From: a virus
Length of the DNA: 64,000 nt
Direction: 5' to 3' (one strand)
Virus record (IMG/VR): IMGVR_UViG_3300021067_000006
Span: 26,838 to 90,837 of that record
A program made the translations under genes and the position numbers. Shown in pieces: positions 2,160 through 60,312 of this stretch. The notes under the pieces are model-generated. The model was not told where the DNA came from and did no database searches. It worked only from the letters and a program-made list of their open reading frames with translations. How positions within the stretch are numbered: the stretch's first letter is position 1; the number at the start of each line of letters is the position of its first letter.

Positions 2160-2677
2160 AGCGACCGCCACTTCTGCGAGAAGCGCCGTCGGAGCTCGGC
2201 GAGACTCTCGGCGCGCTCGCCCGGCCACGCCTCACGCGGCGTCGTCGCAGCGTCCACGCCCGCGGGCAGCTCGCCGAACACGCGCGAGAACAGCTCCTCG
2301 GCGAGGCCCGCAAGCGCCGCGGTCGGAGGCGCAACGAGCGAGCCGTCGAGCAGCGCGCAGAGCACCTCGGCGTCGGTCGCCGGGCGCGTGTCCTCGCCGC
2401 GCTGCACGCGCTCGATGAGCTCGCAGCAGTGCGCCCGGTACGTGCTGAGCGCCTTGCCGAGCAGCGGCCGCGTCGGCTGCAAAAGCGCGAACGTCGCGCG
2501 CTGCTCTCCCGTCTCGGCGAGCACCGTCTCGGCCACGGCCATGCACTCGAACGTGAAGCGCACGGCCTCGCAGGCGCTCGCGCCGAGATGGGCGAACAGC
2601 GCGTCGAGCACCACGCCACGCATGCCCCGGTCGGGGCGGGATATGCAATCGCGCGATTCCAAAGACCGGGTTGTCAC
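2156..2677 (-). CDS. Hypothetical protein (start could be ATG 2623)
   Basis: Coupled overlaps at both ends; palindrome copy near the 5' end. Confidence 0.65.
   Translation of the reverse strand: MTTRSLESRDCISRPDRGMRGVVLDALFAHLGASACEAVRFTFECMAVAETVLAETGEQRATFALLQPTRPLLGKALSTYRAHCCELIERVQRGEDTRPATDAEVLCALLDGSLVAPPTAALAGLAEELFSRVFGELPAGVDAATTPREAWPGERAESLAELRRRFSQKWRSL
2642..2663. promoter_or_regulatory. 22-bp palindrome copy 1 (TATGCAATCGCGCGATTCCAAA)
   Basis: Matches a family of 8 dispersed copies. Confidence 0.75.
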
Positions 2678-2937
2678 GGCGTCGTCCCTTCCTCATCGGC
2701 CACTTCACACGCGCGTAGAACGCTGGCTTTCCACTGCTCCATCGCGAACAGCAGCACGGGCAGGTCCTGCGAACCGCCCCGCTGCCAGTACGTTCGGCGG
2801 CCACCGTCGGCGAGCACAACCACCGAGTGAAACTTGCCGGCCTTCGCCTCGGCGAGCGCGCTCTCGAGCACGCTCACGACCTCAGCCACGATGGCCGGCG
2901 GTACCGCCGGCGCGAGCTGTATCGGCTTCTCGCTCAC
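2674..2937 (-). CDS. Hypothetical protein (87 aa)
   Basis: GTG-SEKPIQLAP; GTGA overlaps. Confidence 0.65.
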   Translation of the reverse strand: MSEKPIQLAPAVPPAIVAEVVSVLESALAEAKAGKFHSVVVLADGGRRTYWQRGGSQDLPVLLFAMEQWKASVLRACEVADEEGTTP

Positions 2938-4118
2938 GGCAGGCTCACCGTCTTCAGCTTGAGCAGCTGCGCGTGCTTCGTCACGCGCGCACGGAAGGCG
3001 TCGACGTGCTCCGCCTTGCACGTACAGCGACCCTCGGGCGAGCCGAGCCGACCGCACGGGCACGGCAGCGTCGACGCGATGATGCGCGCCGGGCGCGCCG
3101 GCAGCCGCACCTCGACGCCGTCGGCACGCCGATACTTGACGTGCCCCTGCTCGAGCACGCGCGCCATTGCCTCGATCGACGACGTTCGCCAGTCGCCGAG
3201 CTCATCGAGCACGAGCACGCCGTGCGTCGCCATCGACACCTCACCGAACGACCAGATCGTCGGCGTCAGCTCGAACCCGATGAGCCCCCGCTCGCTCACC
3301 GAGCAGTGTGGCGCGCGCGCCGGCCGCACCGCGCCCGCCGGCGCCATCCCGATTCCAGCGGCCGAGCGGATGGCGAGCACCTCGAGCGCCTGCAACGGCC
3401 CGAGCGCGCCGAGCTCGTACAGCGCCGCGCGCGCCACCGAGCTCACGCGGTACTCGTTCGACACGTAGCTCGGGCTGATGAGCAGCACGTCGCCCGTGCG
3501 CGGCACCTGCTCGGGCAGCACAGGCACCGGCATCGTCGACCACTGCCGCTCGTTGTCGAGCTCGGGTGTGAGGGTCGTGCGTGCGCCCAACGTGAGCCCG
3601 TGTCCCGGCCGCCCCGTGCGCGCGAACTCGAGCACGGGCCTGAGATGCCGCGCGCCGTAGACCGTGACGTTCTCGGCGAGGCTCGCCTCGGGCAAGTCCT
3701 CATCGCACACCACGACTGTGCGGCAGGCGCCCGTGTCGGCGATGGCCTTCACGCGGGCAAGGCAACCGCGTACCGGCCGGAGCTCGCCGCCGAGCCCGAG
3801 CGACGCGACGCAACCGATCTCGAGCATCGCGCTCGCATCGTCGAACGTGGCATCCGCCACTGCGAGCGCGAGGTCAAAGCCGTAATCGAGACCTTTCACG
3901 TCGAACGCGACCGGCGGCTTGCCGAGCACGGCGGTATCGCTCGCGACTAGCGCCGCGCTCACACGAACCGTCGCCTCGCGCACGCGCATCGAATCGCCGC
4001 CGTAGTTGGGGAACGCGTACCGATTGAGCAGCAGAGCGTCATTCGCGGCAGCGCTCGCGGTGATGGTGAGATGCTCGCCTTCGACGCCAACGAGCCGCGC
4101 GGTGTGAACGAGAGTCAT
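2934..4118 (-). CDS. ComM/YifB (Mg-chelatase-related) homolog with degenerate Walker A and C-terminal truncation
   Basis: VREATVRV, FDLALAVA, SLGLGGELRPVRG, RAPHCS, GEVSMATHGVLVLDEL, PCPCG..CTC motifs; no GxxGxGK(T/S). Confidence 0.85.
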   Translation of the reverse strand: MTLVHTARLVGVEGEHLTITASAAANDALLLNRYAFPNYGGDSMRVREATVRVSAALVASDTAVLGKPPVAFDVKGLDYGFDLALAVADATFDDASAMLEIGCVASLGLGGELRPVRGCLARVKAIADTGACRTVVVCDEDLPEASLAENVTVYGARHLRPVLEFARTGRPGHGLTLGARTTLTPELDNERQWSTMPVPVLPEQVPRTGDVLLISPSYVSNEYRVSSVARAALYELGALGPLQALEVLAIRSAAGIGMAPAGAVRPARAPHCSVSERGLIGFELTPTIWSFGEVSMATHGVLVLDELGDWRTSSIEAMARVLEQGHVKYRRADGVEVRLPARPARIIASTLPCPCGRLGSPEGRCTCKAEHVDAFRARVTKHAQLLKLKTVSLP

Positions 4119-4150
4119 GGTTCGGAGGATGCCGCACGCGCAGCGGCAGC

Positions 4151-4243
4151 TCATCGCCAACCTAAGTCGACCGCGATGTCGTTAGCTACAACCCAAGCAA
4201 CGAAAACGCACAGCAGGCAATCGATTAGATCGATAACGTTCAC
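4151..4243 (-). CDS. 30-aa hydrophobic micropeptide MNVIDLIDCLLCVFVAWVVANDIAVDLGWR
   Basis: SD-like GAGAGGTGG before GTG; paralogous to the neighbouring micropeptide. Confidence 0.55.
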   Translation of the reverse strand: MNVIDLIDCLLCVFVAWVVANDIAVDLGWR

Positions 4244-4253
4244 GAGCCACCTC

Positions 4254-4343
4254 TCATCCGCGCCACCCGCAGAACGTCGCCACGACATCGGTCACGACCC
4301 ACGCGACGCTGACGCAGACCATGACCTCAAACAACCCGCCCAT
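4254..4343 (-). CDS. 29-aa hydrophobic micropeptide MGGLFEVMVCVSVAWVVTDVVATFCGWRG
   Basis: TGATG coupling to upstream gene; paralogous to 4151-4243. Confidence 0.55.
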   Translation of the reverse strand: MGGLFEVMVCVSVAWVVTDVVATFCGWRG

Positions 4344-4561: not shown

Positions 4562-4743
4562 GACTTCACCAGCACGAGCCCGATGATTCGCTCGCCGTCC
4601 ATGAGCTCGGGTGTCCCGTGCGCGCTGTGTTCAGCGTAGAAAGCCCGCATCTCTTTCGCCGTGACGAGCGGATCGTCGCTCGCACGCACCGCAAGTGTCG
4701 CGCCGCACGTCGAGCATCGCAGGCCTGTGAGTCTCACGCTCAT
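4558..4743 (-). CDS. Small Zn-finger-like protein (61 aa)
   Basis: CSTC...H..H; coupled overlaps. Confidence 0.55.
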   Translation of the reverse strand: MSVRLTGLRCSTCGATLAVRASDDPLVTAKEMRAFYAEHSAHGTPELMDGERIIGLVLVKS

Positions 4744-6563: not shown

Positions 6564-7087
6564 GTCCCCGATGATGCGCGCCAACGGAGCGAGCGCACCT
6601 CGGGAAGCCGGATGTCTTCGGGCACGCGCCACAGGCCGAGCTGTCCCCTGCACGGCACTGGCTCGGGCAGCGGCGCGTAATCGAGCACCGAGTAACCGTG
6701 CTGCCCGGCGATGCGCCATCGGTCCTGCGGGCCACGCACGACGCCGTCGTACACGCCGAGGGGTATGCCGAACCGCAGCAGCCCGACGATCGAACCGTAC
6801 GGCGGAGCGACGCGGCCCTTGATCAACGCGCCGCAGTCGTACTCGGGCACAAGCTCGGTAGGCACGCCCGCGCGCGCCGCGAGCTCGCAGTACGCCTTGA
6901 ACGCAGCGCGCGATGGGCGCTGCGAGACGTGCATCCAAACGACTCGATGCTCGAGCGGCAGCGCGCGCTTGCGGTTCTCCACAAGCTTCAGGTGCTCGGG
7001 CGGCAGCGCCGCCATGAACAGCGGCACAGGCCACTGAAACGACAGCGCCCTCGTCGCCGAGCGAAACCAATCCTTCGACAGGGTCAT
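6560..7087 (-). CDS. ASCH-domain protein (175 aa)
   Basis: ALSFQWP, KLVENR, GSIVG, PLPEPVPCRGQLGLW motifs. Confidence 0.8.
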   Translation of the reverse strand: MTLSKDWFRSATRALSFQWPVPLFMAALPPEHLKLVENRKRALPLEHRVVWMHVSQRPSRAAFKAYCELAARAGVPTELVPEYDCGALIKGRVAPPYGSIVGLLRFGIPLGVYDGVVRGPQDRWRIAGQHGYSVLDYAPLPEPVPCRGQLGLWRVPEDIRLPEVRSLRWRASSGT

Positions 7088-7344
7088 CGGCGACACGATG
7101 CCGCCGGTTTGGAATCGCGCGGTTCCAAACCGCGGTGAAGCACGACGAACCAATCGCGCGGACAAAGCGTCATGCCCGAGGGAAGCATCGCGAAGTGCGC
7201 GATGCGCGCGCCCTGCAGCTCAGCGAGCGGCCCGCGGTAGTCGGTGAAGCTCACGATCGTGTCGCGCCCCGGCGCCCACCACACGCGCAGCACGTCGCCG
7301 ACGCGCAGGTCTTCGGACCATACGTGCTCACCGTCGTCGCTCAC
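7084..7344 (-). CDS. Hypothetical protein (86 aa)
   Basis: GTGA coupling; EDLRVGDVL motif. Confidence 0.6.
   Translation of the reverse strand: MSDDGEHVWSEDLRVGDVLRVWWAPGRDTIVSFTDYRGPLAELQGARIAHFAMLPSGMTLCPRDWFVVLHRGLEPRDSKPAASCRR
7108..7129. promoter_or_regulatory. 22-bp palindrome copy 2 (TTTGGAATCGCGCGGTTCCAAA)
   Basis: Immediately upstream of the CATCGT hexamer of the ASCH gene. Confidence 0.8.
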
Positions 7345-11816: not shown

Positions 11817-11896
11817 CCGGCTCAGCGCCAGGCAACGTCGACCGGCTCAGCACCAGCGACGAAAGAGAGCATGGTTCATCATGCGTCAGCACGCAA
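11817..11896 (-). promoter_or_regulatory. Early promoter cassette P2: TTGCGT-N17-CATGCT plus two GCTGA-loop hairpins
   Basis: -35 11896-11891, -10 11873-11868; hairpins 11817-11831 and 11842-11856. Confidence 0.75.
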
Positions 11897-12397
11897 CCGA
11901 AAAGCGACAGCCCATTCGTCTGCAGCCTCTTTCGACTCGAACACGAGCAGGGTAGCCTTGAGCCGACCGGCCCGGGCGTCGATGAGCAGGCGCTCGAGCA
12001 TCACGACCGGCTCGGCCGGCACAGACCCCGGCACGGTCGACGCGGGCAGCGCGGCGCTCGGCACCGATATGCATCCGCGCGATTCCAAACTTGCCCGTGC
12101 ACGCGCCTCGGCCGCCTCGAGGTGCGCGCGCAGCTCGGGCTCGACCGCCACGCGGTTCGCGACGCGGCGCTCGGCCGATGCCACCGACGAATGGTCGCGC
12201 AGCATCTGCCGCCCCGTCTCCGATTGCGACAGCCCGAGCCTGCGGCAGAGATAGATCGCAAACGCGCGCGCGTTGAACAGCGCCGGAGAACGCGCGAGCG
12301 GCGAGTTGTGCGGCACGATGACAGCGCTCGTGACACCGAGCGCGGCGAGCACCGCGTCGCGCACCGCGCTCGGTTCGAGCCCTAGCTGAGCAGCCAT
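11879..12397 (-). CDS. DnaA domain IV (Bac_DnaA_C)-like HTH protein (172 aa)
   Basis: ARAFAIYLCRRLGLSQSETGRQMLRDHSSVASA parallels DnaA RQIAMYL..SLPEIG..RDHTTV. Confidence 0.8.
   Translation of the reverse strand: MAAQLGLEPSAVRDAVLAALGVTSAVIVPHNSPLARSPALFNARAFAIYLCRRLGLSQSETGRQMLRDHSSVASAERRVANRVAVEPELRAHLEAAEARARASLESRGCISVPSAALPASTVPGSVPAEPVVMLERLLIDARAGRLKATLLVFESKEAADEWAVAFRLRADA
12068..12089. promoter_or_regulatory. 22-bp palindrome copy 3 (TATGCATCCGCGCGATTCCAAA)
   Basis: Intragenic member of the family. Confidence 0.7.
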
Positions 12398-20255: not shown

Positions 20256-20277
20256 TTTGGAATCGCGCGATTGCATA
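20256..20277. promoter_or_regulatory. 22-bp palindrome copy 4 (TTTGGAATCGCGCGATTGCATA)
   Basis: Upstream of CATCAT hexamer leading into the terminase region. Confidence 0.8.
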
Positions 20278-24421: not shown

Positions 24422-24832
24422 TCACCGCCGCACCTCGCGCACCACGCGAACACCGCCGCGCTCGAGCGCGTGCTCGACCTCGGCAGCCTCGCGCACGGTC
24501 ATCCCGCCGCCGGCCGGCGCGCTCCAAAAGTCGGGCATCAGATCGGTCACGCTCCAATCATGCTGCGCCTGCTCGGCGAGCAGCTCGGGCTCCGTCGCCG
24601 GCCCCGGCCAATCGCGCTCGAGCCACTCATACCCGCGCGCGAAGCCCTGCTCGTACGAGCCCTCGGCCAGCGCGACCGCGAACGCCTCCCACTCGTCGGC
24701 GGTAGCATCGGGGCGGTACCGCCGAAACATCAGCACCTCGTCGCGCAACCGGCGCGGCGCACGCGGTCCCTCGTGATAGCGGCTGATGAATCGCTCGAGC
24801 AGATGCAGCAGCCAACGGCCGGCGCGCGTCAC
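24422..24832 (-). CDS. Hypothetical protein (136 aa)
   Basis: GTGA coupling. Confidence 0.65.
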   Translation of the reverse strand: MTRAGRWLLHLLERFISRYHEGPRAPRRLRDEVLMFRRYRPDATADEWEAFAVALAEGSYEQGFARGYEWLERDWPGPATEPELLAEQAQHDWSVTDLMPDFWSAPAGGGMTVREAAEVEHALERGGVRVVREVRR

Positions 24833-25530
24833 TTGATCGCAGCTGCAGCGTCGAGCACCGCGCGCTCGACGATGTCTGTGACGCTCTCCGCCGAACGCTC
24901 AGCACCGAGCCGGCGCACGGCCTCGAGAAACCGCTCGTGCCGTTCGGCGGTGAAGTACAAAGGGACCGTCTTCGTGTGCTGATTCTGCGACACGAGCGGC
25001 GCCGGAGGCGAGCTCGGCCGCGCGACGTCGAACGCCATCATCTTCGTGAGCGCGTCCTCGGTGATGCCGAGCTCGAGACTTACGGTCGGGAAGTCTTCGA
25101 CGCCGAGACTCTGCACGAGCTGCGCGGCGGCCGTCGGATCGAACTTGCCGTGCTTGGTGTCGAGCTCGAACGTGAGCGCGCGCGCATCGCGCTCGGTGAG
25201 CCGGCTAAGAAAGACGACCGGCCCACGCTCGAACCCGAGCTCAGTCGCGACCGTCCATCGCTGCTCGCCGTCGATGATGACGTCGCGCCGACGGCCCTTC
25301 TCGTCGGTGCCCCACACGAGCAGCGCCTGACTCGTGATCCATCCCTTCGTTCGAAAGCCGTGCGCGAGCGCACGACGCTCGAACTGCGTCATGCGATTGG
25401 GGTTCCACTCATTCGGCTTCAGCTTGGCAAGCTCGTACAGCACGACCGCGCCGACGACGAAACCACCGGCGAGCCTCGCGCCTGAGCGTTCGTTTCGCGC
25501 TGCTGCCTTCATCCGTCGGGAAGTTACCAC
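24829..25530 (-). CDS. ParB/Srx N-terminal-domain protein with predicted C-terminal ribbon-helix-helix
   Basis: LKPNEWNPN, IIDGEQRW; C-terminal KTVPLYF strand then two helices. Confidence 0.8.
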   Translation of the reverse strand: MVTSRRMKAAARNERSGARLAGGFVVGAVVLYELAKLKPNEWNPNRMTQFERRALAHGFRTKGWITSQALLVWGTDEKGRRRDVIIDGEQRWTVATELGFERGPVVFLSRLTERDARALTFELDTKHGKFDPTAAAQLVQSLGVEDFPTVSLELGITEDALTKMMAFDVARPSSPPAPLVSQNQHTKTVPLYFTAERHERFLEAVRRLGAERSAESVTDIVERAVLDAAAAIK

Positions 25531-28024: not shown

Positions 28025-28137
28025 TCGCCGCGCCTCTTTCGCGTCAACAGGTTGATCGCAATCACGCAGCCGAGAATGCCGCCGACAACGATCGCGATGT
28101 AGACCCACGCCGCGACAGTCTCGGCCTGCGATGCCAT
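28021..28137 (-). CDS. Small single-TM protein (38 aa)
   Basis: WVYIAIVVGGILGCVIAINLL then RKRR; TATGAT-N6-ATG. Confidence 0.6.
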   Translation of the reverse strand: MASQAETVAAWVYIAIVVGGILGCVIAINLLTRKRRGE

Positions 28138-28144
28138 GCGCCGA

Positions 28145-28591
28145 TCATAGGCCAGCGCCAGCGAGCGCGTGCTCGATGACACGCTCGACCTCATGCCAGT
28201 CCACGTCGACGGCGCTGCGCTCGCGCGCTCGAGCGAGCAGGTCGGCGACCACGCCGCGCAAATCGAGCGCGGCCTCAACGTCCACAGCGCCCGCCACACG
28301 CTCCACGTCGCGCTCGGGAAGCTCAGCAGCGCCAGCCTCGGGCGGTAAGTCCTGCACGCGCACAGCGCCCGCAGCACGGGCCTGCCGCTTCCATTCGGCA
28401 ACCGCTGCCGCCTCGGTGCCCGCCGGCGGCCGAACCCAAACAATCGCGCCGTCGAGCGAATCGAGGCTTTCCACAGGCTTGTGGAATTCCTGCGCGGAAA
28501 CGACCACCAACCGGCGCGCCTCGAGCGGCTCGAACCTCACCGGTTTGGAATCGCGCCGTTCCATACCGGCCTTGCTTCTCGGCACTCGCAT
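28145..28591 (-). CDS. Probable C-terminal part of Mre11/SbcD (cap and Rad50-binding helices)
   Basis: VRFEPLEARRLVVV...GAIVWVR...helical tail; TGATG coupling to nuclease ORF. Confidence 0.6.
   Translation of the reverse strand: MRVPRSKAGMERRDSKPVRFEPLEARRLVVVSAQEFHKPVESLDSLDGAIVWVRPPAGTEAAAVAEWKRQARAAGAVRVQDLPPEAGAAELPERDVERVAGAVDVEAALDLRGVVADLLARARERSAVDVDWHEVERVIEHALAGAGL
28544..28565. promoter_or_regulatory. 22-bp palindrome copy 5 (TTTGGAATCGCGCCGTTCCATA)
   Basis: At the SbcD split junction. Confidence 0.7.
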
Positions 28592-35561: not shown

Positions 35562-36875
35562 CTATGATGCCGCGTCGACCTTTCGGTGCTCGATGATCAA
35601 CACGAGCCCGCGGCCCTCGACGTTGACCAGCCGATAGTGCGTCTCGGTTCCGTTGATCGCAACGTCGAGCCCGTGCGGATCGTCGTCGACCGACGTCGCC
35701 GCGCGCGGCGTCCCGTCGACGTTGGGGTTGCGCGCGTACAGCGCGATCTCGCGACGCTGGCTCGAGTGCACGAGCACGATCTCGTCCTCGGAAACGATAC
35801 GCGGTCGGGACGCAGGCGCGCCGCCCGTACCCGTGCTCGGCTTGTCTGCACTCGGCTGCTGCACGTTCGCCGCGCTCGCCGCGCCGTTCGCTTCCGATGG
35901 CTCTGCCTTGCGCGTGCCGTCGAACGGCGTGCCCGTGCGCGCCGTTCCGAAGCCACCGCGCGAGCTCGGCTGCACGACAGGATCGCGCGTCGCGCCGGGA
36001 TGTTCCTGCTGCACTCGCTGCTCGAGCTCACGACTGCTCAGCACCCCGGCTTTCTCGAGCAGCTTCGCGCGTGCTTCCTCTGGCACTCGCACGAGCACCT
36101 TCAGCTTGGTGATCCCAAACTTCCTGACGTCGGCTTCCTCGAACGCCGTCGCGACCGCCATCACGTCGCGCGCGAGCTGCGGCGACATGTTGAGCTCGGC
36201 TGTGCAGAACGCCGCCCATGACTTGTACAGCGGCTGCCCCTTCGCATCGACGCGAAACTTGTACAGACCACGATCGTAGTTGTCGAACAGGGCACGGCCT
36301 AGCTGCCAGTACGTTCCGACCGCGTCGCCCTGCAGCGTCTTGATGCGCTTGACCGATGCGTCGAGCTCTTTCGCTGCGCCCTTCATCGCCGCCGCGTTCG
36401 ACGTCGCGAGCGGCAGCGCCGGCGCCTTCTCAGTCGCAGCCGGTTTCGATGCAGCAGCGGGCTTCGACACACCTGCCGGCTTCGCCTTCGTCGCAGCAGG
36501 CTTCGCCTTCGTCGCAGCAGGCTTCGCCTTCGACGCAGCAGGCTTCGCCTTCGCTTCATCAGCGGCAGCCTTCACCTGCACACCCGACGCCGCAGGCGAG
36601 TCTGCGGTCGGCGCGGTCTCACCGGTTCCGCAGTACGGACACACCGGCAGCGAGAGCAGCGACGGCCCGCCGCAGCTGCGGCAGTCGCCGAGCTTTTTCT
36701 CGTCCTTTTCCTTCAGGACTATATCGGCATATTCGCGCACACGTTTTTCGACGGAGTCTTTCGCCGTGAACTTGAGGCCGGCCTGCTTCGCGTATTCGTT
36801 GAGGGTCGTGAGATTCACCTTCGCGAGGTCGACACCACGCACCAACTTCGGAACGTTCGCTACTGCTTGAGTCAT
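35562..36875 (-). CDS. Putative DNA-binding protein with Zn ribbon, histone H1-like repeats and DUF3102-like helical core
   Basis: CRSC..CPYC; (KAKPAAT/S)n; YWQLGRAL...SWAAFCTAEL. Confidence 0.7.
   Translation of the reverse strand: MTQAVANVPKLVRGVDLAKVNLTTLNEYAKQAGLKFTAKDSVEKRVREYADIVLKEKDEKKLGDCRSCGGPSLLSLPVCPYCGTGETAPTADSPAASGVQVKAAADEAKAKPAASKAKPAATKAKPAATKAKPAGVSKPAAASKPAATEKAPALPLATSNAAAMKGAAKELDASVKRIKTLQGDAVGTYWQLGRALFDNYDRGLYKFRVDAKGQPLYKSWAAFCTAELNMSPQLARDVMAVATAFEEADVRKFGITKLKVLVRVPEEARAKLLEKAGVLSSRELEQRVQQEHPGATRDPVVQPSSRGGFGTARTGTPFDGTRKAEPSEANGAASAANVQQPSADKPSTGTGGAPASRPRIVSEDEIVLVHSSQRREIALYARNPNVDGTPRAATSVDDDPHGLDVAINGTETHYRLVNVEGRGLVLIIEHRKVDAAS
36478..36553. repeat. Coding tandem repeat, 21-bp unit x about 3.6
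   Basis: GGCTTCGCCTTCG(TC/AC)GCAGCA units encoding KAKPAAT/S. Confidence 0.85.
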
Positions 36876-37519
36876 GAGAGAGGGCTTTCACTGGATTGAG
36901 AGAGGGTAGCTTTGAGCACACGGCGCACTGCGCGCTCAGCGTGCTCGGGTTCGATGTTGAATGCGAGATGCAGCATGCTGTTCCGCCGCACTGTTTCGAC
37001 CGTCTGCCGGAGGTCACCGGTGCGAGCCAGCACGCCGAGCACGTACCGCTGCAAGCTCTCCTGCGCTCGCTCTGCGAGCAACGCAAGCGTCTCGCGACGC
37101 TCGCACTGCTCGTGCATCTCGACCGTCTCGTCGACGTCGGCAGACGCCTTTTCGACGAGACGCTGCTCGGCCGTGCCGTCGATAGCTAAACACGCGAACG
37201 GCAACGGGTAACGGGACTTGCTTTTGCCGTCGCGGCGGAACGCACAGCGCTCGCGATGCAGCCACTTGACCGCCTTGTCACACGCGTTCCAAACGACGAA
37301 ATCTTCGAGCGACCGCCCCCGTTCCGGATCCCAACGCGGCACCCGTCGGTGGACGTCGGCGAGCATCACCTGCACGACATCCTCGATGTCGACCGAAGGC
37401 GGTAGGCGCCAGCGTCGAATCAGCGACGACGCGAGGGAAAACCATTCCTTTCGGGTGATGGCGTAGAAGCGGGCAAAGGTGATGCGCCCGCAGTGATAAG
37501 CGCGCAACTCGTTTTTCAT
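36872..37519 (-). CDS. Phage-encoded sigma-70-family factor (215 aa)
   Basis: IEDVVQ...RWDPERGRSLEDFVVW resembles region 2; helical region-4-like C-terminus. Confidence 0.75.
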   Translation of the reverse strand: MKNELRAYHCGRITFARFYAITRKEWFSLASSLIRRWRLPPSVDIEDVVQVMLADVHRRVPRWDPERGRSLEDFVVWNACDKAVKWLHRERCAFRRDGKSKSRYPLPFACLAIDGTAEQRLVEKASADVDETVEMHEQCERRETLALLAERAQESLQRYVLGVLARTGDLRQTVETVRRNSMLHLAFNIEPEHAERAVRRVLKATLSQSSESPLS

Positions 37520-37607: not shown

Positions 37608-39176
37608 TCAGATAGTGATCGCCTCGAACGGCAGAGCGCGGCGCTTCTGGTCGAGCAACAGGCGACCGGCAGCAGCCTGCACCTCATCCTCGAGCCACGG
37701 GTCCGTGTTGACCTCGTGAGCCCAGCGCGTGAAAGCGTTGACGACCGCGGCGCGGGTCACGCCGCGCGCGGGGTCGGGGCGCCCGTCAACGAGCGAGCTG
37801 CGCGTCGCGCTGCTCACGTCGCGGTCGTACATCGACAGCAGCTGTCGCACGACCTCGGGGCGCTTGCCTCGCACCGGCACGAGCTCGCGCTCGATGCAGC
37901 CGTTGAACGCAGCCGCGAGCACCTCGCGCGCCGGCCGGGACATCAGCTCTTCGTCGGCGGCGCTGAGCACGTTCTCGTGCGTGGCCAGGTTCCAGGCCCG
38001 CACGAAGTGATCGATCTTGCCGAGCGCCGCAGCGAACTCATCGTCGAACCGTTCGGCGAGCGCCTCGACGCTGCCGACGTGACGGATGCGAGCGACCTCC
38101 TGCGAGGCCTCATCGAGGATGATGAGGTTTAGGCAGAGGTTCTGCCAAACAACCGCGCTCACGACGATCGAGCCCGAGCCATCGTCGCGCGTGCGCACCG
38201 TGACGCCCGCTTTAAAAAACTCGCCGGCGACGTAGTTCTCGGGCTGCACGTCGCTGTGAAACAGCGCCTCGATGCGCGTGCGCACGCCGTCGTACACGAC
38301 CCCGCCGCGCGCGCCGTCGGCGTAGCCGAGCGTGTTGAGCGAGCGCCGTACCGCCGCAGCGACGCGATCCGAGTCGAACGTCGCGTACTTCGGACCAACG
38401 ACGCCGAACACCTCGGGCTTGTCCTCGGGCCCGCGCAGGCGCAGCTTCGCGTCGCCCCGCTGAGCCTGTGCACCATCGTCGCCCGCGAGCCAGTGGTTGA
38501 CGTTCGTCGCGCGCAGCCGCGGCGTGCAGCGCTCGAGGTACTCACGGCCTCCGATGCCCGAGCGCGTCAGCAGACCGCCGAACCCGACCACCGAAGGGAA
38601 CCCGACGAGCCGGTGCACGTCACCCTCGGTGCGAACGAACGCGCCATCGCTGCGCATGCGCAGCTCGCCGAGCGGCATGTCGAGGTCGCGCCGGTTCTCG
38701 TCGACGATGCGCCGCTCGAACGCGACACAGCTGTCGACCGTGCGATCCATGGCCGACCACTCGAGACGCGACGTGCGCGCGTTCTCGACGCCGACATCGA
38801 TCACGCGCGAGCCCCGAGCGTAAACCGTCTGCTTCGGCGCAAAGCCATTCGCTTCCGCTGCCGCCTTGTCAGCGAGAGACCGGGCACGGCCTTCCTCGCT
38901 GATGCCGCCTTCCTGCCGCGACACCCGCGGCACGCGGCCAGCCGGCGGCGCGATGACAATGGGAGCAGTCGAGCCATCGCCAAGCGCGTGCGGCGCCGGC
39001 TGTGCAGCGGGCGCCGGTATGGCGCCGCGCGGTTGCATATCGTTCGAAGCGACCGGGGTCACCTTTGGAACGCCACCACCCGCGAGCTTCACGAGCTCGT
39101 CGCACGTCGCGAACGTCTGCTCGGCCGATACGATCCGCTTCTCATTCCCCAGGGTCACGATGTACTGCTGTTGCAT
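37608..39176 (-). CDS. DUF932-like protein (522 aa)
   Basis: VFGVVGPKY, RDDGSGS, LCLNL, IRHVG, VVNAFT motifs. Confidence 0.7.
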   Translation of the reverse strand: MQQQYIVTLGNEKRIVSAEQTFATCDELVKLAGGGVPKVTPVASNDMQPRGAIPAPAAQPAPHALGDGSTAPIVIAPPAGRVPRVSRQEGGISEEGRARSLADKAAAEANGFAPKQTVYARGSRVIDVGVENARTSRLEWSAMDRTVDSCVAFERRIVDENRRDLDMPLGELRMRSDGAFVRTEGDVHRLVGFPSVVGFGGLLTRSGIGGREYLERCTPRLRATNVNHWLAGDDGAQAQRGDAKLRLRGPEDKPEVFGVVGPKYATFDSDRVAAAVRRSLNTLGYADGARGGVVYDGVRTRIEALFHSDVQPENYVAGEFFKAGVTVRTRDDGSGSIVVSAVVWQNLCLNLIILDEASQEVARIRHVGSVEALAERFDDEFAAALGKIDHFVRAWNLATHENVLSAADEELMSRPAREVLAAAFNGCIERELVPVRGKRPEVVRQLLSMYDRDVSSATRSSLVDGRPDPARGVTRAAVVNAFTRWAHEVNTDPWLEDEVQAAAGRLLLDQKRRALPFEAITI

Positions 39177-39274: not shown

Positions 39275-39670
39275 TCAGGCCGCCCGGGAAGGGCGCGGGT
39301 CTTTGAACCCGGCCTCCCGCAGCGCGTCGATCCAACGAGCCACCGAGCTCGGCTGCACGCCGAGGGCCTCTGCGACTTTGTTCTGCTGCCCGAGCTCGGC
39401 GAACAGGGTTACGAGCCGAGCGTGCACGGCCTCCGGCTGGGAATCGATGAGCAGCGAGAACGTCGCGACGCCGGCCTCGATGCGGGGGTCGGTGTAGCCC
39501 TCGGCCCCGAGCCGAGAGATCCACCGCGTCACCGTCGACGGCGCAACGCCGAGCGCACGCGCGACCGCGTGCAGCCCACGCTGCCGCTTGAAGCTCGAGA
39601 CGAGCTTCGCGTGCGCACGCGCGGGGTCGGTCGTAACGAGCGCGCCTAGGGGGTCGTGACGGAATGACAT
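39275..39670 (-). CDS. Tandem double-HTH protein (131 aa)
   Basis: AVARALGVAPSTVTRWISRL and KVAEALGVQPSSVARWIDAL repeats. Confidence 0.8.
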   Translation of the reverse strand: MSFRHDPLGALVTTDPARAHAKLVSSFKRQRGLHAVARALGVAPSTVTRWISRLGAEGYTDPRIEAGVATFSLLIDSQPEAVHARLVTLFAELGQQNKVAEALGVQPSSVARWIDALREAGFKDPRPSRAA

Positions 39671-39683: not shown

Positions 39684-39833
39684 TTATGCCGCAGACGCCT
39701 CAGCTAGGGTGGAGAAGTAACGCGCGAGCGCGTCGATGTCCTCGATGGCTTCGGCGTGGGTCGACGCGCGAATCTCATCCGCGATCTCATCGACCGTCTT
39801 ACCGGCGCACGCTGCTCTGATGCTGTCGATCAC
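39684..39833 (-). CDS. Small acidic protein (49 aa)
   Basis: GTGA coupling; below ORF-track cutoff. Confidence 0.5.
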   Translation of the reverse strand: MIDSIRAACAGKTVDEIADEIRASTHAEAIEDIDALARYFSTLAEASAA

Positions 39834-40069
39834 TTCTTCCACGGCGTCTCTCTCCGGCGACGTCGCTCAGCACGCAGCGCGTCGACCTGCTCCCAAAGCT
39901 TGACACGAGATAGCACGCGGTAAAGGTGACGACGGCTCACGCACAGATCGTGGGCTGCCGCGCGCACGTTGCCCCCTCGGCGCTCGAGCGCCTGCAGCAG
40001 CAAGGCGCGGCCCTGCTCGATGTCCTCGGACACCACGCGGAACACGTGCGGGCGCTTCGTGTCAGCCAA
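39830..40069 (-). CDS. Fis-type HTH protein (79 aa)
   Basis: ALERRGGNVRAAAHDLCVSRRHLYR. Confidence 0.8.
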   Translation of the reverse strand: MADTKRPHVFRVVSEDIEQGRALLLQALERRGGNVRAAAHDLCVSRRHLYRVLSRVKLWEQVDALRAERRRRRETPWKK

Positions 40070-41018
40070 CGCTCACCAGCCTTGCCAGTTCAGCCGGCTC
40101 GAGCGCATCGCAGTCGACGCCTTCGGGCAACAGCACACGAGCCACGACAGCGTGCCGCGCGAGCACGTCGTGCAACATGGTGAATGCCTTCCGCCCAGCG
40201 TCATCCTGGTCAGTTGCCACGACGACGCGGGCGAACGACGCGAGCTTCGACACCTGACTCGGATGCAGCGACGAGCCCATGAGCGCGGCGATCGCGACGT
40301 CGGGCAGAGCGCGCTCGACGGCGAGCGCGTTGAACGCGCCTTCGGTGACGACCACGGTGCTGCGCTCGCTCGGCCACCACTCCTCACCGAACACCGCCGC
40401 GGGCGAGGGCCGCTCGCGCGCCGCGGGCTCGCGGTACTTCCGTTTCGCGCGAACGATGGCGCGCGCCGTGTACGAGAGCAGCCTGCCGTTCCCATCTCGC
40501 ACGGGAATCACCACGCGCGGGATTCCCTCGAGCTCACCGTCTTCGTACGCCAAACCCTCAGGCGCGAAGCCGAGGCCCCATCTCACGACCTGCGAAGCCG
40601 TGAGCTTCCGAACGTCGAGCACGTAGCTGCGCGCGTCGTCAGGCCATGCGTCGAGCGTGGCGAACTCCACGACGTCCGGCATCACCAGCCCGGCGAACCG
40701 CTCGCGCAGCTCGAGCTCGACCGCGTGCGGCACAGGGCGCGCCGTGGGCGGCATCTCTTTGAGCCAGTCGATCGCTTCCTTCGGGGTGATGTCGAGCACG
40801 ATCGCAACGAGCTTCATCGGCCCGCCGTGAAAGCCGCACGAGAGGCACGAATGGCAAGCGTGGTACGGATGGCCCGGCTCATCGCGGATGAACCACGGTG
40901 TGCCTGAGCGCGTGATGTGATCGGGGTTCGGACACGATGCCTCGAACTTCCGAGCGCCAACACGCTTCGCTCGAATCTGCAGGCGCTCGAGTAGCAGCTC
41001 GACGTCGACGCGGAACAT
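40062..41018 (-). CDS. DnaG-type primase (Zn-binding + TOPRIM)
   Basis: CPNPDH..CLSC; TEGAFN; DQDDAG. Confidence 0.88.
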   Translation of the reverse strand: MFRVDVELLLERLQIRAKRVGARKFEASCPNPDHITRSGTPWFIRDEPGHPYHACHSCLSCGFHGGPMKLVAIVLDITPKEAIDWLKEMPPTARPVPHAVELELRERFAGLVMPDVVEFATLDAWPDDARSYVLDVRKLTASQVVRWGLGFAPEGLAYEDGELEGIPRVVIPVRDGNGRLLSYTARAIVRAKRKYREPAARERPSPAAVFGEEWWPSERSTVVVTEGAFNALAVERALPDVAIAALMGSSLHPSQVSKLASFARVVVATDQDDAGRKAFTMLHDVLARHAVVARVLLPEGVDCDALEPAELARLVSVG

Positions 41019-42576: not shown

Positions 42577-43113
42577 TCAGCGCCTGCGCGCGCTTGCCGT
42601 GCGGTAATCAACGAGCAGCGATCGGTGCGCGAACTGCAGACGCCAGCCGAGTCGACGCCCGTCGGTCTTTCCCTCGGCGCGGCGCACGCGCTCGGCCTTG
42701 TTCTCTCGCGCCCAGCACCACTGCACGAAGTGCACGGCCGCGACCACGGCGTCGCCGAACTCTTTCCGCAAGAGCGCGCGTGCGCTCGACGTCGCAGCGA
42801 GAAACTCTTTCTCGAGCTCTTGAGCGTCGACGCCGTACACGTGCCGATGCGACAGCGCATAGAGCCCGACAAGCGTGCGCGCGTCAGCACCATCCCACGC
42901 GCGCTCCCCCTCGTGACGTCGCGCGATGCGCGCCTCGGCGTCGGCGATGTGCCGCGCGAGAGACTTGCGCAGATCGCTTGCTCCTCGGCGTCGCTTCAGA
43001 TTCCTCGGCTTCACGCTGTCGGCCGCTTCCTCGAACGACATCTCGCGCGACGCTGGCGTGTTCGACTCGCGCATGAGCGCGCGCAACTTGTCTGCCGTCA
43101 TCGGTCGACGCAT
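42577..43113 (-). CDS. Hypothetical protein (178 aa)
   Basis: TGATG coupling. Confidence 0.65.
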   Translation of the reverse strand: MRRPMTADKLRALMRESNTPASREMSFEEAADSVKPRNLKRRRGASDLRKSLARHIADAEARIARRHEGERAWDGADARTLVGLYALSHRHVYGVDAQELEKEFLAATSSARALLRKEFGDAVVAAVHFVQWCWARENKAERVRRAEGKTDGRRLGWRLQFAHRSLLVDYRTASARRR

Positions 43114-43589
43114 CAGCTCGCCTTCGGATCTTCGCAGCACTCGAGATGGTTGAAAAACTGAACGCGGCGTAGCTCGAACTCCGCTTCGAACATCGTCGCC
43201 GCAACCGTGCGAGCTCGCACGTACGCGTCGCGCGCGCTCTCACCCGTGCCTACCGTGATCGCAACGGAGATAGGACCGACCTCGAACCCGTTATGCTTCA
43301 CCGGCCAGAACACCTCTTTGCCGATCGTCACGGTGATCGTCGCGCCCGCGCCGAGCTCGGTGCTCTCGATTCGTTCGAGATGCTTGTCCGCGCTGATGCC
43401 CTTCGACATCTTCGCGCTCTTGACGCCGGCCTCCGCCGGCGCTGCCGACGTCGGCGCGTTCTGCGGTTTGGAATCGCACGATTCCAAACCGGCGCTGCGA
43501 TCAGCGGCGCCAGCCTGCGAAGAGCCCGTCGCCGTCGTCGCCTGCGTCGTCGTCCTCGGCCCGCCTACTTCGCTTCGTTTCCTGACCAT
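43113..43589 (-). CDS. Hypothetical protein (158 aa)
   Basis: Globular C-terminal half; overlaps helicase 3' end. Confidence 0.65.
   Translation of the reverse strand: MVRKRSEVGGPRTTTQATTATGSSQAGAADRSAGLESCDSKPQNAPTSAAPAEAGVKSAKMSKGISADKHLERIESTELGAGATITVTIGKEVFWPVKHNGFEVGPISVAITVGTGESARDAYVRARTVAATMFEAEFELRRVQFFNHLECCEDPKAS
43467..43488. promoter_or_regulatory. 22-bp palindrome copy 6 (TTTGGAATCGCACGATTCCAAA)
   Basis: Near-perfect dyad, intragenic. Confidence 0.8.
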
Positions 43590-45216: not shown

Positions 45217-45238
45217 TATGCAATCGCGCGATTCCAAA
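45217..45238. promoter_or_regulatory. 22-bp palindrome copy 7 (TATGCAATCGCGCGATTCCAAA)
   Basis: Upstream of the CATCAT hexamer heading the replication genes. Confidence 0.8.
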
Positions 45239-59030: not shown

Positions 59031-59035
59031 GAGGG

Positions 59036-60268
59036 TTACGCCGTCGCCGCCGTGCGCTGCTCGAGCACCGTGCGCACCGGCACGATGATCGGGGTCCGCT
59101 CGGGCGGCAACACCGTGTACGCCGGCAGCCCGTTCGCGCGCGCGAGCTCGGCCGACAGATCGGTGCCGTAGTACCGCATCGCGATCTGCAGCAGCGTCTC
59201 ACCCTCGCGCGGCACGATGATCGCGAGCACGTCGTTCGGCCCTGCCTCGTTGCCCGTCGGCGTAGCCCCCGCAACGCGGCGCTGCCGTGCCTGCCTGGCA
59301 AGCGCGAGCGACGACGCCGACACGAGCTCAGCCTGTGTCTGCGCACGCCCGTAGTACGCCGCCGTGCGCGCGAGCACGGCCACGCGGCTCGTGTTCGCCA
59401 TCTGCTCGGGTCCGCGGCGTCCGGCCTCATCGACGAATTGGTTCGCCACCGACACCGCGTTCGTCGCGACGTCGAGCACGTGCCCGGCGATCGCCGCGGG
59501 CAGGTCGCGCACCTGCAGCACGAGGTCGCCAACGTGCTTCAGCCGATTCGTCACCTGCTGCGCAGAGCGGCCGAACGACTCGACGATCGCGAGCGGCGCA
59601 GTTGCCATCGACTCAAGCGAGCCGAGCGAAAACGTCGAGATGCTGTCGACCGTCCGGCGCTTTAGGAATTCCTCGACGAACACCGCGCGCACCGCGCCGT
59701 CGAGCGCGGCCATCGCGGTGCGCGCCGCGGCGATGAGGTCTTCGCCGCGGAACTCCAACGTCGGCGCGAGCGCGAGCCCGCGGCCCGACCACTCGAACGT
59801 CACCGACCACTGCACGTCGTCGAGCGTGCGGTAACGCGGCTCGAACTCTGTGATCCTGCCGACGCGCGTGATCCGCAGCTCATCGCGCGAGGAGATGCGA
59901 CCGGCACTGCTGAACCGCGTCGCGGTGTTGATCCACGTCACGCGCAGGAGCTGCCCGCCGAGTCGGATGGAATCAAGCGCCTCGGCGAGCTGATACGCGA
60001 GCGCAACCTCGTGCAGACCGCCGGAGTCGATGAACTCGCACGGCGCAACGACGAGACGATTCGTGTTCCATTCGCCCTGCCAATCGCTCGGCATCTCCTG
60101 CGGCGACAGCACGTGCTGCGTGGCGTCGGGGTTGCCCGGGTTCCAGCGCGTCGCAACGACCGTGCGTGACGCCCAACCCGCACCCTGCCGCGGCAGGCCA
60201 GAGCCCTTGAGCACGAGCCGACGTTTCTTGCCCGTGAGCTCTTCGATCGTCAGCGTCGACGCGGCCAC
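59036..60268 (-). CDS. Tube-initiator-like protein with C-terminal LysM/tail-X domain
   Basis: GETLLQIAMRYYG..LARANGL; downstream of tape measure. Confidence 0.7.
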   Translation of the reverse strand: MAASTLTIEELTGKKRRLVLKGSGLPRQGAGWASRTVVATRWNPGNPDATQHVLSPQEMPSDWQGEWNTNRLVVAPCEFIDSGGLHEVALAYQLAEALDSIRLGGQLLRVTWINTATRFSSAGRISSRDELRITRVGRITEFEPRYRTLDDVQWSVTFEWSGRGLALAPTLEFRGEDLIAAARTAMAALDGAVRAVFVEEFLKRRTVDSISTFSLGSLESMATAPLAIVESFGRSAQQVTNRLKHVGDLVLQVRDLPAAIAGHVLDVATNAVSVANQFVDEAGRRGPEQMANTSRVAVLARTAAYYGRAQTQAELVSASSLALARQARQRRVAGATPTGNEAGPNDVLAIIVPREGETLLQIAMRYYGTDLSAELARANGLPAYTVLPPERTPIIVPVRTVLEQRTAATA

Positions 60269-60290
60269 GCGCTCAGGCTAGCGCGCCCCG

Positions 60291-60312
60291 TATGGAACCG
60301 CGCGATTCCAAA
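60291..60312. promoter_or_regulatory. 22-bp palindrome copy 8 (TATGGAACCGCGCGATTCCAAA)
   Basis: Intergenic, upstream of TAGCCT hexamer. Confidence 0.8.

What the first reader, a model, noticed from the sequence alone, without database searches (positions are those of the whole stretch)
2642..60312. Eight dispersed copies of a 22-bp palindrome T(T/A)TG(G/C)AA(T/C)CGCGCG(A/G)TTCCA(A/T)A across all modules
Seen: copies at 2642, 7108, 12068, 20256, 28544, 43467, 45217 and 60291, often with extra GG/CC or G/C flanks. The arms are AT-rich in a very GC-rich genome. Four copies (7108, 20256, 45217, 60291) lie 7-10 nt upstream of a -10-like hexamer, over the -35 zone of starts for the ASCH/VRGHWR genes, terminase region, replication genes and tail hub genes. 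Other copies are intragenic and impose LESRDC/RDSKP-like peptides on unrelated proteins, so the DNA rather than the protein is under selection. Inference: a genome-wide binding-site network for a dimeric phage protein. It could be an operator/roadblock system (functionally like mycobacteriophage stoperators, but symmetric) or a dispersed centromere (like the scattered inverted repeats of the N15 plasmid prophage). Candidate binders in the window are the ParB-N/RHH protein, the double-HTH protein, the Fis-like HTH and the DnaA-IV protein.
Basis: partly seen in the sequence, partly recalled or inferred. Interest (0 to 1): 0.85.

Follow-up and report, generated by a model that had tools for sequence, protein, structure and literature searches.

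The report
Phage-wide palindromic protein docking sites
A 90.8-kb uncultured soil phage carries ten near-identical 22-bp palindromes spaced evenly at its gene-block boundaries, and eleven related phages each have 13-26 copies of their own version, so these are almost certainly docking sites for a phage-encoded DNA-binding protein that has not yet been identified.

Summary
All eight copies are at the stated coordinates, with none in 100 shuffles. The complete 90.8-kb virus genome holds ten strong copies plus one degenerate copy (window 39018).

All genes are on the minus strand. Seven of the ten copies lie between a stop codon and the next start, and four overlap the -35 zone of leaderless-type promoters.

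Eleven complete relatives each carry 13-26 copies of their own 16-bp palindrome. These are 72% intergenic, more evenly spaced than chance, and partly at orthologous junctions. The closest relatives differ by 1-2 bases per half-site in every copy.

Pair counts, flank tests and RNA folding give no support for a hairpin or terminator. No Y1 transposase, integrase or ParA was found.

Best reading: double-stranded DNA sites for a two-fold symmetric phage protein that acts at transcription-unit boundaries.

The ParB-like candidate is disfavoured. It is absent from two palindrome-rich genomes and present in four palindrome-less ones. A small HTH family (tandemly duplicated here) and a phage sigma factor co-occur with the palindromes. 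No candidate co-varies significantly with them, so the binder and the direction of regulation are unresolved.

This scan has noted similar dispersed palindromes in many other phage genomes. The closest published case is the Cluster O mycobacteriophage repeat.

The parts
60291..60312 (.). Palindrome copy in the 52-nt gap between gene 60321-60959 and gene 59036-60268. On the minus strand it is followed by 10 nt, TAGCCT (60280-60275), 6 nt and GTG at 60268.
   Evidence: G001 has a site at the orthologous position upstream of the same tail-region gene.
45217..45238 (.). Palindrome copy upstream of the replication-module helicase. On the minus strand it is followed by 8 nt, CATCAT (45208-45203), 7 nt and GTG at 45195.
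   Evidence: A site lies upstream of the helicase ortholog in 5 of 12 genomes.
43467..43488 (.). Palindrome copy 15 nt after the helicase stop codon, at the start of small gene 43113-43487. It has the most stable predicted hairpin of the ten copies (-18.9 kcal/mol).
   Evidence: A site lies just downstream of the helicase ortholog in 6 of 12 genomes by the 150-nt criterion, and in 8 of 11 synteny rows.
39018..39039 (.). Degenerate eleventh copy (2 mismatches, one arm decayed), inside the 5' part of gene 37608-39176. It lies in the region where relatives have a full site, ahead of the unit that contains the sigma gene.
28544..28565 (.). Palindrome copy in the gap after the SbcD-like phosphoesterase gene (28591-29322), 28 nt after its stop codon.
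   Evidence: A site follows a member of this gene family (which also contains the SbcC-like protein) in 6 of 12 genomes.
20256..20277 (.). Palindrome copy 13 nt after the stop of gene 20288-20764. On the minus strand it is followed by 8 nt, CATCAT (20247-20242), 7 nt and ATG at 20234.
12068..12089 (.). Truly intragenic copy, inside the DnaA_C-like HTH protein gene 11879-12397. The same frame is coding on both sides of it. As RNA it would not form the hairpin (-3.7 kcal/mol, z +1.5).
7108..7129 (.). Palindrome copy overlapping the last codons of the upstream ORF. On the minus strand it is followed by 7 nt, CATCGT (7100-7095), 7 nt and ATG at 7087.
2642..2663 (.). Palindrome copy in the 50-nt gap between gene 2674-2937 (stop 13 nt upstream) and gene 2156-2623.
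39275..39670 (-). Candidate binder. A 131-aa protein made of two tandem four-helix HTH units (class B small HTH family). Relatives have single-unit versions, and the start of the recognition helix is hypervariable between phages.
   Evidence: Pfam HTH_23/HTH_28. AlphaFold2 model with pLDDT 86. An HTH of this wider family occurs in 12 of 12 palindrome-bearing genomes and 0 of 4 palindrome-less ones. Co-variation is not significant.
39830..40072 (-). A Fis-family HTH_8 gene (class A paralog) that my gene caller had missed, between the primase gene and the double-HTH gene. Its start codon is uncertain. Its recognition helix is conserved across phages with different palindromes, so it is an unlikely specificity reader.
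36872..37519 (-). Phage-encoded sigma-70 family protein, present in all 12 palindrome-bearing genomes and in none of the 4 palindrome-less ones. Most relatives have a palindrome next to or just upstream of the unit that contains it.
   Evidence: Pfam Sigma70_r2, E = 6.7e-7
24829..25512 (-). ParB/Noc-superfamily protein with an N-terminal CTPase-type domain and a C-terminal ribbon-helix-helix-like segment.

Best explanation
The palindromes are sites on double-stranded DNA for a sequence-specific, two-fold symmetric DNA-binding protein encoded by the phage itself. They are placed at the boundaries of transcription units along a genome that is transcribed in one direction.

Each half-site, T(T/A)TG(G/C)AA(T/C)CGC, is read by one subunit or one HTH unit.

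In this phage four sites cover positions of roughly -22 to -45 of promoters that have only a -10 element and start transcription at the start codon. A bound protein there would occupy the -35 zone. My preferred reading is that occupancy switches these units off or insulates them from read-through, as an operator or roadblock does, in a lytic temporal programme rather than in lysogeny. The opposite sign, activation, is the main rival.

The most likely reader is the small HTH family encoded just after the primase. In this phage that protein is a single chain with two HTH units (window 39275-39670), possibly working with the phage sigma factor.

Shown: the sites, their symmetry, their placement, their conservation as a feature and their lineage-specific sequence. 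Inferred: that a protein binds them, which protein it is, and the effect on transcription.
For: (1) There are ten strong copies and none in shuffles.

(2) At the variable positions the two arms are not complementary in 4-7 of the 10 copies. Overall pairing is 77.5% against 78.8% in shuffles, so the arms vary independently, as half-sites for a dimer would.

(3) Half-sites do not occur alone beyond chance.

(4) Eleven complete relatives each have 13-26 copies of their own 16-bp palindrome, and the consensus palindrome is symmetric through the centre in all of them.

(5) 164 of 228 sites lie outside called genes, although about 90% of each genome is coding. Many start within 15 nt of a stop codon and end 15-45 nt before the next start.

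(6) Several junctions are shared across genomes, for example the helicase flanks.

(7) Spacing is more even than random in 11 of 12 genomes, with a coefficient of variation near 0.5 against 0.93.

(8) The closest relatives differ by 1-2 bases per half-site in every copy, which is concerted change.

(9) Gaps that carry a site are followed by leaderless-type starts 2.6 times more often than other gaps. In this phage the centre lies 18-21 bp upstream of the -10 hexamer at four sites.

(10) The motif is at chance level in 596 Gb of prokaryote genomes.

(11) The HTH family and the sigma factor are present in 12 of 12 genomes with palindromes and in 0 of 4 without.
Against: No protein has been shown to bind the sites. 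No candidate's recognition helix co-varies significantly with the half-site at n = 11-12 (partial r of 0.13 or less, p of 0.17 or more), and an unbiased window scan found nothing.

G008 and G010 share a palindrome core but differ in every candidate helix.

The phyletic pattern does not separate the HTH family and sigma from the rest of the replication module, which is also absent from the palindrome-less relatives.

Only 51 of 228 sites have a recognisable leaderless promoter downstream, and the distance to the -10 element is broad across the family. Some sites are inside genes. A purely promoter-centred role therefore cannot cover all sites.

The sign of regulation is inferred only from geometry. 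The host is unknown, and the leaderless promoter model rests on sequence pattern alone.
Confidence: 0.55

Rival explanations
1. The same protein-site network acts positively. The bound dimer stands in for the missing -35 contact and recruits RNA polymerase, perhaps carrying the phage sigma factor, to -10-only promoters. Known parallels, recalled from memory, are the dyad sites of Mu Mor and C over the -35 region and the MotA box at -30 of T4 middle promoters.
For: Four window sites are centred 18-21 bp upstream of the -10 hexamer, where a -35 element would lie. Across the family the distances cluster at 10-22 bp and 35-44 bp, about two helical turns apart. Sites are enriched before leaderless-type starts. 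A phage sigma factor is universal in the family, and a site often lies beside its gene.
Against: Each distance cluster is about half a helical turn wide. Only 22% of sites have such a promoter. Some sites are inside genes or precede Shine-Dalgarno-type starts. About 15 CATCAT-N7 starts in this phage have no palindrome, so the site is not needed for that promoter type.
Confidence: 0.22
2. The sites are loading or partition sites for the phage's ParB/Noc-superfamily protein. They would be a dispersed centromere, as in N15, or a KorB-style sliding-clamp silencing system.
For: The sites are 16-22 bp perfect palindromes, dispersed and evenly spaced, like parS, NBS and OB sites. The ParB-like family profile matches Noc and ParB at E = 1e-16. 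KorB is a precedent for a ParB-family global repressor that acts from palindromic operators (PMC11790492).
Against: The ParB-like gene is undetectable in G003 (24 sites) and G011 (19 sites), yet present in all four relatives that lack palindromes. Only the N-terminal domain aligns with confidence, and the stretch aligned to the ParB HTH is acidic and low-confidence. The ribbon-helix-helix strand is nearly identical in G007 and G006, which have different palindromes, and differs between G008 and G010, which share one. No ParA, integrase or serine recombinase was found.
Confidence: 0.06
3. The palindromes act as RNA, or as extruded DNA hairpins. They could be factor-independent terminators, 3'-end stabilisers, RNase processing sites, or substrates for the phage SbcCD-like nuclease that would seed recombination.
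For: Many sites lie directly after stop codons. Six of the ten copies in this phage would fold at -11 to -19 kcal/mol. Flanks in G008 and G006 show some extra complementarity. The phage encodes SbcC-like, SbcD-like and RecA-like proteins next to copy 28544.
Against: There is no compensatory change: pairing is 77.5% against 78.8% in shuffles, and variable positions are mostly unpaired. Four of the ten copies fold no better than shuffled sequence, and none of the ten is followed by a run of U. Across 228 sites the flanks are no more complementary than with swapped partners (z = -0.1), and G:T and A:C mismatches are equal at 149 and 146. The consensus palindrome is symmetric through the centre in every lineage, which a hairpin loop does not require. 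A structure-only role does not explain identical sequences within a genome.
Confidence: 0.07
4. The palindromes are selfish or recombination-driven repeats. They could be REP- or MITE-like elements spread by a transposase, or linker sequences homogenised by gene conversion, with no regulatory role.
For: The sequence is lineage-specific, changes in concert, and sits between genes just after stop codons, as bacterial REP elements do. The Cluster O paper reports deletions by recombination between its repeats (PMC4351075).
Against: No Y1 (RAYT/IS200-type) transposase was found in five genomes. The element is only 16-22 bp long. Copies are over-dispersed rather than clustered, and positions are partly orthologous across phages that share only about 30-50% protein identity. 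This indicates long-term retention under selection.
Confidence: 0.04

Closest known systems
17-bp dyad-symmetric repeat of Cluster O mycobacteriophages (Corndog and relatives; PMC4351075)
   Same: A short repeat with dyad symmetry, with invariant arms, present in tens of copies over the whole genome. The copies are partly in short intergenic gaps and partly in genes. The flanks are G/C-rich. The repeat is absent from host genomes, and the authors proposed it as a site for a dimeric regulatory protein. Its function and binder are unknown.
   Different: The sequence and the phage family are unrelated; this is a roughly 90-kb phage with a baseplate-wedge gene and one-strand gene order. Here there is no unpaired spacer, so the palindrome runs through the centre. 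There are fewer copies (10, against 13-26 in relatives and 34 in Corndog). The five Cluster O phages all share one repeat sequence, whereas here twelve divergent relatives show that the sequence is rewritten lineage by lineage while the layout persists.
Operators and stoperators of Cluster A mycobacteriophages (L5 gp71, Bxb1, TipsytheTRex; PMC6550527, PMC9283540)
   Same: There are 20-30 binding sites for one phage protein spread through the genome. Most are not associated with promoters and a few lie within promoters. Each phage group has its own consensus, which tracks repressor divergence.
   Different: Stoperators are asymmetric, oriented with transcription, and bound by a monomeric immunity repressor of temperate phages. 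The sites here are symmetric and have no orientation. No integrase, ParA or recognisable immunity repressor was found.
KorB and its OB operators on plasmid RK2; ParB-parS and Noc-NBS (PMC11790492, PMC7383237, PMC8429893)
   Same: Short perfect palindromes (13-16 bp) lie at dispersed positions and are read by a dimer. KorB acts as a global repressor from sites at varied distances from promoters. In the ParB/Noc family, specificity changes through a few residues.
   Different: The ParB-like protein of this phage family fails the presence/absence test and the co-variation test. There is no ParA partner.
Conserved inverted repeats bound by the phiC31 repressor in Streptomyces
   Same: A 17-bp inverted repeat recurs at many intergenic positions near unusual phage promoters in a high-GC actinophage, and one phage protein binds it.
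   Different: phiC31 is temperate and its binder is the immunity repressor. No sequence or gene homology to phiC31 was tested or seen here.

Membership tests
Cluster O-type dispersed dyad repeat (descriptive class, function unknown) | One short dyad-symmetric sequence repeated many times across the whole phage genome, far above chance | tested here: met
   Ten copies against none in shuffles; 13-26 copies in each of 11 relatives.
Cluster O-type dispersed dyad repeat (descriptive class, function unknown) | Absent from bacterial genomes, so not a host repeat | tested here: met
   Two hits in 596 Gb, which is about the number expected by chance. The one examined lies inside a conserved ORF. The host itself is unknown.
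Cluster A stoperator/operator system | Asymmetric site in one orientation relative to transcription | tested here: not met
   The sites are palindromic. The mixed half-site types occur in both orders.
Cluster A stoperator/operator system | Binder is the immunity repressor of a temperate phage (with integrase or parABS present) | tested here: not met
   No PF00589, PF00239 or PF13614 match in five genomes, while the control genomes were positive.
Cluster A stoperator/operator system | Many sites in short intergenic gaps, with a group-specific consensus | tested here: met
   72% of 228 sites lie outside genes. The consensus differs in each lineage.
ParB-parS / KorB-OB / Noc-NBS | A ParB-family protein with a DNA-reading domain co-occurs with the sites | tested here: not met
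   The protein is absent from G003 and G011, which have 24 and 19 sites, and present in four genomes without sites. Only the N-terminal domain aligns with confidence.
ParB-parS / N15-type dispersed centromere | A partner partition ATPase (ParA/SopA) and a plasmid-prophage lifestyle | tested here: not met
   No AAA_31 ParA-type match in five genomes. Protelomerase was not tested.
Intrinsic terminator / structured RNA element | A stable stem kept by compensatory changes, followed by a U-tract | tested here: not met
   none of the ten copies is followed by a T-run.
REP/RAYT-type mobile palindromes | A cognate Y1 transposase encoded in the genome | tested here: not met
   No PF01797 match in five genomes.
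Activator site that replaces the -35 element (Mu Mor/C or T4 MotA-box type) | A site at a fixed position over the -35 zone of promoters that have a -10 but no -35 element | tested here: inconclusive
   The distance is fixed at 18-21 bp in four window sites, but across the family it is broad and bimodal and applies to only 51 of 228 sites.

The most novel reading that the evidence does not exclude
These phages appear to be virulent. The evenly spaced, lineage-specific palindromes and a small, fast-evolving HTH protein, perhaps acting with the phage sigma factor, could form a private 'address code' for the whole transcription programme. One dimer would mark every unit boundary, and its specificity would be rewritten in concert at 10-26 sites as lineages split, so that co-infecting relatives cannot cross-regulate one another. 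This would be the lytic-phage counterpart of immunity specificity. It would also be a natural series of a dozen or more matched protein-DNA specificities.
Probability: 0.2. Interest if true: 0.75.

Novelty: new member of a known kind. Interest (0 to 1): 0.55.

Why it matters
Dispersed dyad repeats have been described in a few cultured phages, and their role is still unknown in the Cluster O case. This report shows the same kind of element as a family-wide trait of a large uncultured group of soil phages.

Three properties narrow the possibilities. The sites sit at unit boundaries. They are spaced more evenly than chance. The whole set changes in step between lineages.

If the binder is found, the family offers many natural pairs of matched protein and site for studying how a regulator and tens of its targets change specificity together. 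It could also supply orthogonal operator-repressor parts.

The recurrence of such elements in this scan suggests that genome-wide punctuation by a single site is a common and under-described feature of phage gene control.

Tried and rejected
1. Close relatives. Relatives were reached instead through an alignment of baseplate-wedge homologs.

2. The same palindrome in relatives. None of the 75 loci has it within 3 mismatches. Only a 1.7-kb soil contig, L004, shares it.

3. Hairpin or terminator. Rejected.

4. Host repeat. Rejected.

5. REP/RAYT mobility. No Y1 transposase.

6. Lysogeny or centromere. No integrase, serine recombinase or ParA.

7. ParB-like protein as binder. Rejected on phyletic pattern and on its reading strand.

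8. Co-variation to identify the binder. Four approaches all failed to reach significance:
- whole-protein residual correlation;
- a sliding-window scan using the pair that shares a palindrome;
- visual comparison of helices;
- a partial Mantel-type test.
It was redone from stored files.

9. Enlarging the dataset. Only about 18 distinct palindromes were recoverable from the held loci.

10. Fold search of the double-HTH model. No significant match, only weak AraC-type two-HTH hits.

11. Profile searches of two other conserved small families against solved structures. Nothing useful.

12. A 14-mer repeated about 19 times in relative G016 turned out to be a tandem array at the ends of the contig, not a dispersed element.

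Full report
**Observation**

The 22-bp pattern occurs at all eight stated positions, plus a degenerate ninth at 39018, and in none of 100 dinucleotide-preserving shuffles. The window is the last 64 kb of a one-contig virus record of 90,837 bp with 68% GC. The rest of the genome adds two copies, at genome positions 10121 and 21733, making ten strong copies.

A codon-usage gene caller places all 119 genes on the minus strand, so the element has to be read on that strand. The consensus is a 22-bp palindrome with a weaker cgg...ccg extension.

**Placement in this phage**

Frame-specific GC3 on either side of each copy gives the following:
- Seven of the ten copies lie strictly between an upstream stop codon and the next start: 60291, 45217, 43467, 28544, 20256, 2642 and genome 10121.
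- Copy 7108 overlaps the last codons of the upstream ORF.
- Only 12068 and genome 21733 are truly intragenic.

At four copies the palindrome is followed by 7-10 nt, then a -10-like hexamer (CATCGT, CATCAT, CATCAT or TAGCCT), then 6-7 nt and the start codon. This is the layout of leaderless promoters with only a -10 element. That reading is inference from sequence pattern, and the host is unknown. It puts the palindrome over the -35 zone.

The same CATCAT-N7-start layout occurs at about 15 other gene starts that have no palindrome. The palindrome is therefore an addition to a subset of such starts, not part of the promoter type.

**RNA hairpin or DNA site?**

A pair count on the ten aligned copies shows no selection for pairing. 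Pairing is 77.5% of cells against 78.8% in shuffles. At the three variable positions, 4-7 of the 10 copies are unpaired.

Folded as RNA, the copies range from -2.4 to -18.9 kcal/mol, and four fold no better than shuffled sequence. None of the ten is followed by a run of U. Half-sites do not occur alone beyond chance, 3 against 2.6 expected.

The two arms therefore behave as independent draws from one degenerate half-site. This is what a dimeric protein on duplex DNA predicts.

**Is it a host or common repeat?**

The degenerate pattern gave 0 hits in viral contigs, 2 in 596 Gb of prokaryote genomes and 4 in metagenome contigs. These are about the numbers expected by chance. The hit in the Solirubrobacteraceae genome and its metagenome homolog lie inside a long conserved ORF, with no homolog of any phage candidate nearby.

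One metagenome hit, L004, is a true relative. It encodes a 49%-identical baseplate-wedge protein with the same palindrome 10 nt upstream of its start.

**Relatives**

The phage has no close cultured relative. The best capsid match is 31% identity to a Streptomyces phage. Its baseplate-wedge protein, however, has more than 450 metagenomic homologs, many on contigs of 85-100 kb.

An alignment-based scan returned 75 loci from IMG/VR. None has this palindrome. Many have their own recurring perfect palindrome.

I fetched eleven complete relatives. Each has 13-26 copies of a private 16-bp palindrome. For example, one relative has 26 perfect copies of a CCAAACCC-type arm, and others have GGGAACCC-, GGATGATC- or CGCACGGC-type arms.

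Across the twelve genomes:
- 164 of 228 sites (72%) lie outside called genes, although about 90% of the DNA is coding. Nearly half of the intergenic sites start within 15 nt of the upstream stop codon, and most end 15-45 nt before the next start.
- Spacing is more even than random in 11 of 12 genomes, with a coefficient of variation near 0.5 against 0.93 and P of 0.02 or less.
- Several positions are shared. A site flanks the helicase gene, upstream or downstream, in 11 of the 12 genomes. The junction after the SbcD/SbcC-like gene family carries a site in 6 of 12. The site upstream of the tail-region gene 59036-60268 is shared with G001 and G006.
- The closest relatives have palindromes that differ by one or two bases per half-site, and the difference is present in every copy. 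The set changes in concert.
- The consensus palindrome is symmetric through the centre in every lineage, which a hairpin loop would not require.
- Over all 228 sites the flanks are no more complementary than with swapped partners (z = -0.1), and G:T and A:C mismatches are equal at 149 and 146. Only G008 and G006 show a local excess of flank complementarity.

**Lifestyle and mobility**

No tyrosine integrase, serine recombinase, ParA-type ATPase or Y1 transposase was found in five genomes, and every search was positive in at least 6 of the 14 control genomes. Lysogenic immunity, a plasmid-prophage centromere and REP/RAYT-type spread are therefore all unsupported.

**Relation to promoters**

Gaps of 30 nt or more that carry a site are followed by leaderless-type starts in 26% of cases, against 10% for other gaps. 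Many still precede Shine-Dalgarno-type starts.

For the 51 sites with a clear -10 element and ORF, the distance from the palindrome centre to the -10 hexamer clusters at 10-22 bp and 35-44 bp, about two helical turns apart. In this phage it is 18-21 bp. This is compatible with either occlusion or replacement of the -35 contact, and I treat it as suggestive only.

**Who binds?**

The ParB-like protein (24829-25512) is a real ParB/Noc-superfamily member, E = 1e-16, but only its N-terminal domain aligns with confidence.
- Its putative ribbon-helix-helix strand does not follow the palindromes.
- It is undetectable in two palindrome-rich genomes.
- It is present in all four distant relatives that have no dispersed palindrome.
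I regard it as very unlikely to be the binder.

Those four palindrome-less relatives lack the sigma-70 family protein (36872-37519) and a family of small HTH proteins encoded just after the primase. Both are present in all twelve palindrome-bearing genomes. The rest of that replication module is missing from the four relatives too, so the pattern is permissive rather than specific.

The HTH family has two classes:
- Class A is a Fis-family HTH_8 protein above Pfam's cut-off. In the window it is an ORF my gene caller had missed, at about 39830-40072. Its recognition helix is conserved among five phages with very different palindromes, so it is a poor specificity reader.
- Class B has a hypervariable helix start. 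In this phage it is a tandem duplication of two four-helix HTH units in one chain (39275-39670; model pLDDT 86). Only one other 131-aa homolog turned up, at 67% identity, plus a weaker 113-aa match whose alignment also suggests two units.

This phage is one of only two among the twelve whose half-sites come in more than one flavour (the other is G008). That fits a pseudo-dimer, but the mix of half-site types is not statistically different from random assortment.

No candidate helix co-varies significantly with the half-site at n = 11-12. The binder is therefore unresolved. I rank class B HTH first, then the sigma factor or a class A/B pair, then the ParB-like protein well behind.

**Comparison with known systems**

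The closest published description is the 17-bp dyad repeat of Cluster O mycobacteriophages. It has 34 copies with invariant arms, is partly intergenic, is absent from hosts, and its function is unknown (PMC4351075).

Cluster A stoperators share the genome-wide layout and the group-specific consensus, but they are asymmetric, oriented, and bound by a lysogenic repressor (PMC6550527, PMC9283540).

KorB with its OB operators, and ParB/Noc with parS and NBS, share the palindrome type and the dispersed layout (PMC11790492, PMC7383237). The required protein fails the tests here.

This scan has recorded many similar cases in other phage genomes, including soil and wetland phages in which relatives keep the positions but change the sequence. 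Those notes are unchecked by me.

**Verdict**

The interpretation as a binding-site network is supported. The centromere and ParB readings are not.

The element is a new member of a known, poorly understood kind: dispersed dyad-symmetric docking sites in phage genomes. It has useful added properties, namely boundary placement, even spacing and concerted lineage-specific change. Its function is best guessed as control or insulation of transcription units. The sign of that control and the binder need experiment.

Noticed in passing
window 39830-40072 (minus strand): An ORF that my gene caller missed, between the primase gene and the double-HTH gene, encodes a Fis-family HTH_8 protein (Pfam 25.5 bits, cut-off 22). 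Paralogs sit at the same place in most relatives.
   Followed up: partly
window 1421-45195, about 15 gene starts: CATCAT (or CATCGT, CATCCT) followed by 7 nt and ATG/GTG precedes many gene starts, often only 1-12 nt after the upstream stop codon. Relatives use CATAAG, CATGAT, CATAGT, TAGGCT or TAGCCT in the same position. It looks like a -10-only leaderless promoter at very many genes, but a role in translational coupling is not excluded.
   Followed up: partly
window 26108-30428 (minus strand): A cluster of SbcC-like (26108-28024), SbcD-like phosphoesterase (28591-29322) and RecA-like (29319-30428) genes. All three gene families are present in all 12 palindrome-bearing genomes. Palindrome copy 28544 lies inside this cluster.
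   Followed up: no
window 4740-7087 (minus strand): Two overlapping reading frames. Gene 6560-7087 is followed by a long ORF whose best start (ATG 6563, preceded by CATCAT and 7 nt) overlaps it, while a 776-aa frame stays open from 7070. The gene structure here is unclear.
   Followed up: no
L004:383-404 (soil metagenome contig of 1,674 bp): This is the only other record found with this phage's palindrome. Its wedge protein is just 49% identical, less than that of relatives with different palindromes (up to 57%). Either the structural genes are mosaic or the palindrome type is older than the wedge tree suggests.
   Followed up: partly
relatives G008 (L119-L123) and G006 (L109-L113): In these two genomes the variable flanks outside the conserved core are more complementary within a site than between sites. 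In G008 the stem extension is 5.0 bp against 2.9 bp with swapped partners. No such excess is seen in the other ten genomes.
   Followed up: partly
G016 (L154:1-400 and L158, the contig ends): A tandem array of a 15-bp unit (about 19 copies in all) sits at both ends of this 82.8-kb relative. It is probably a terminal repeat structure.
   Followed up: no
window 23527-23901 (minus strand): A stand-alone response-regulator receiver domain protein (Pfam Response_reg, E = 4.7e-14) lies directly upstream of the DinG-type helicase gene.
   Followed up: no
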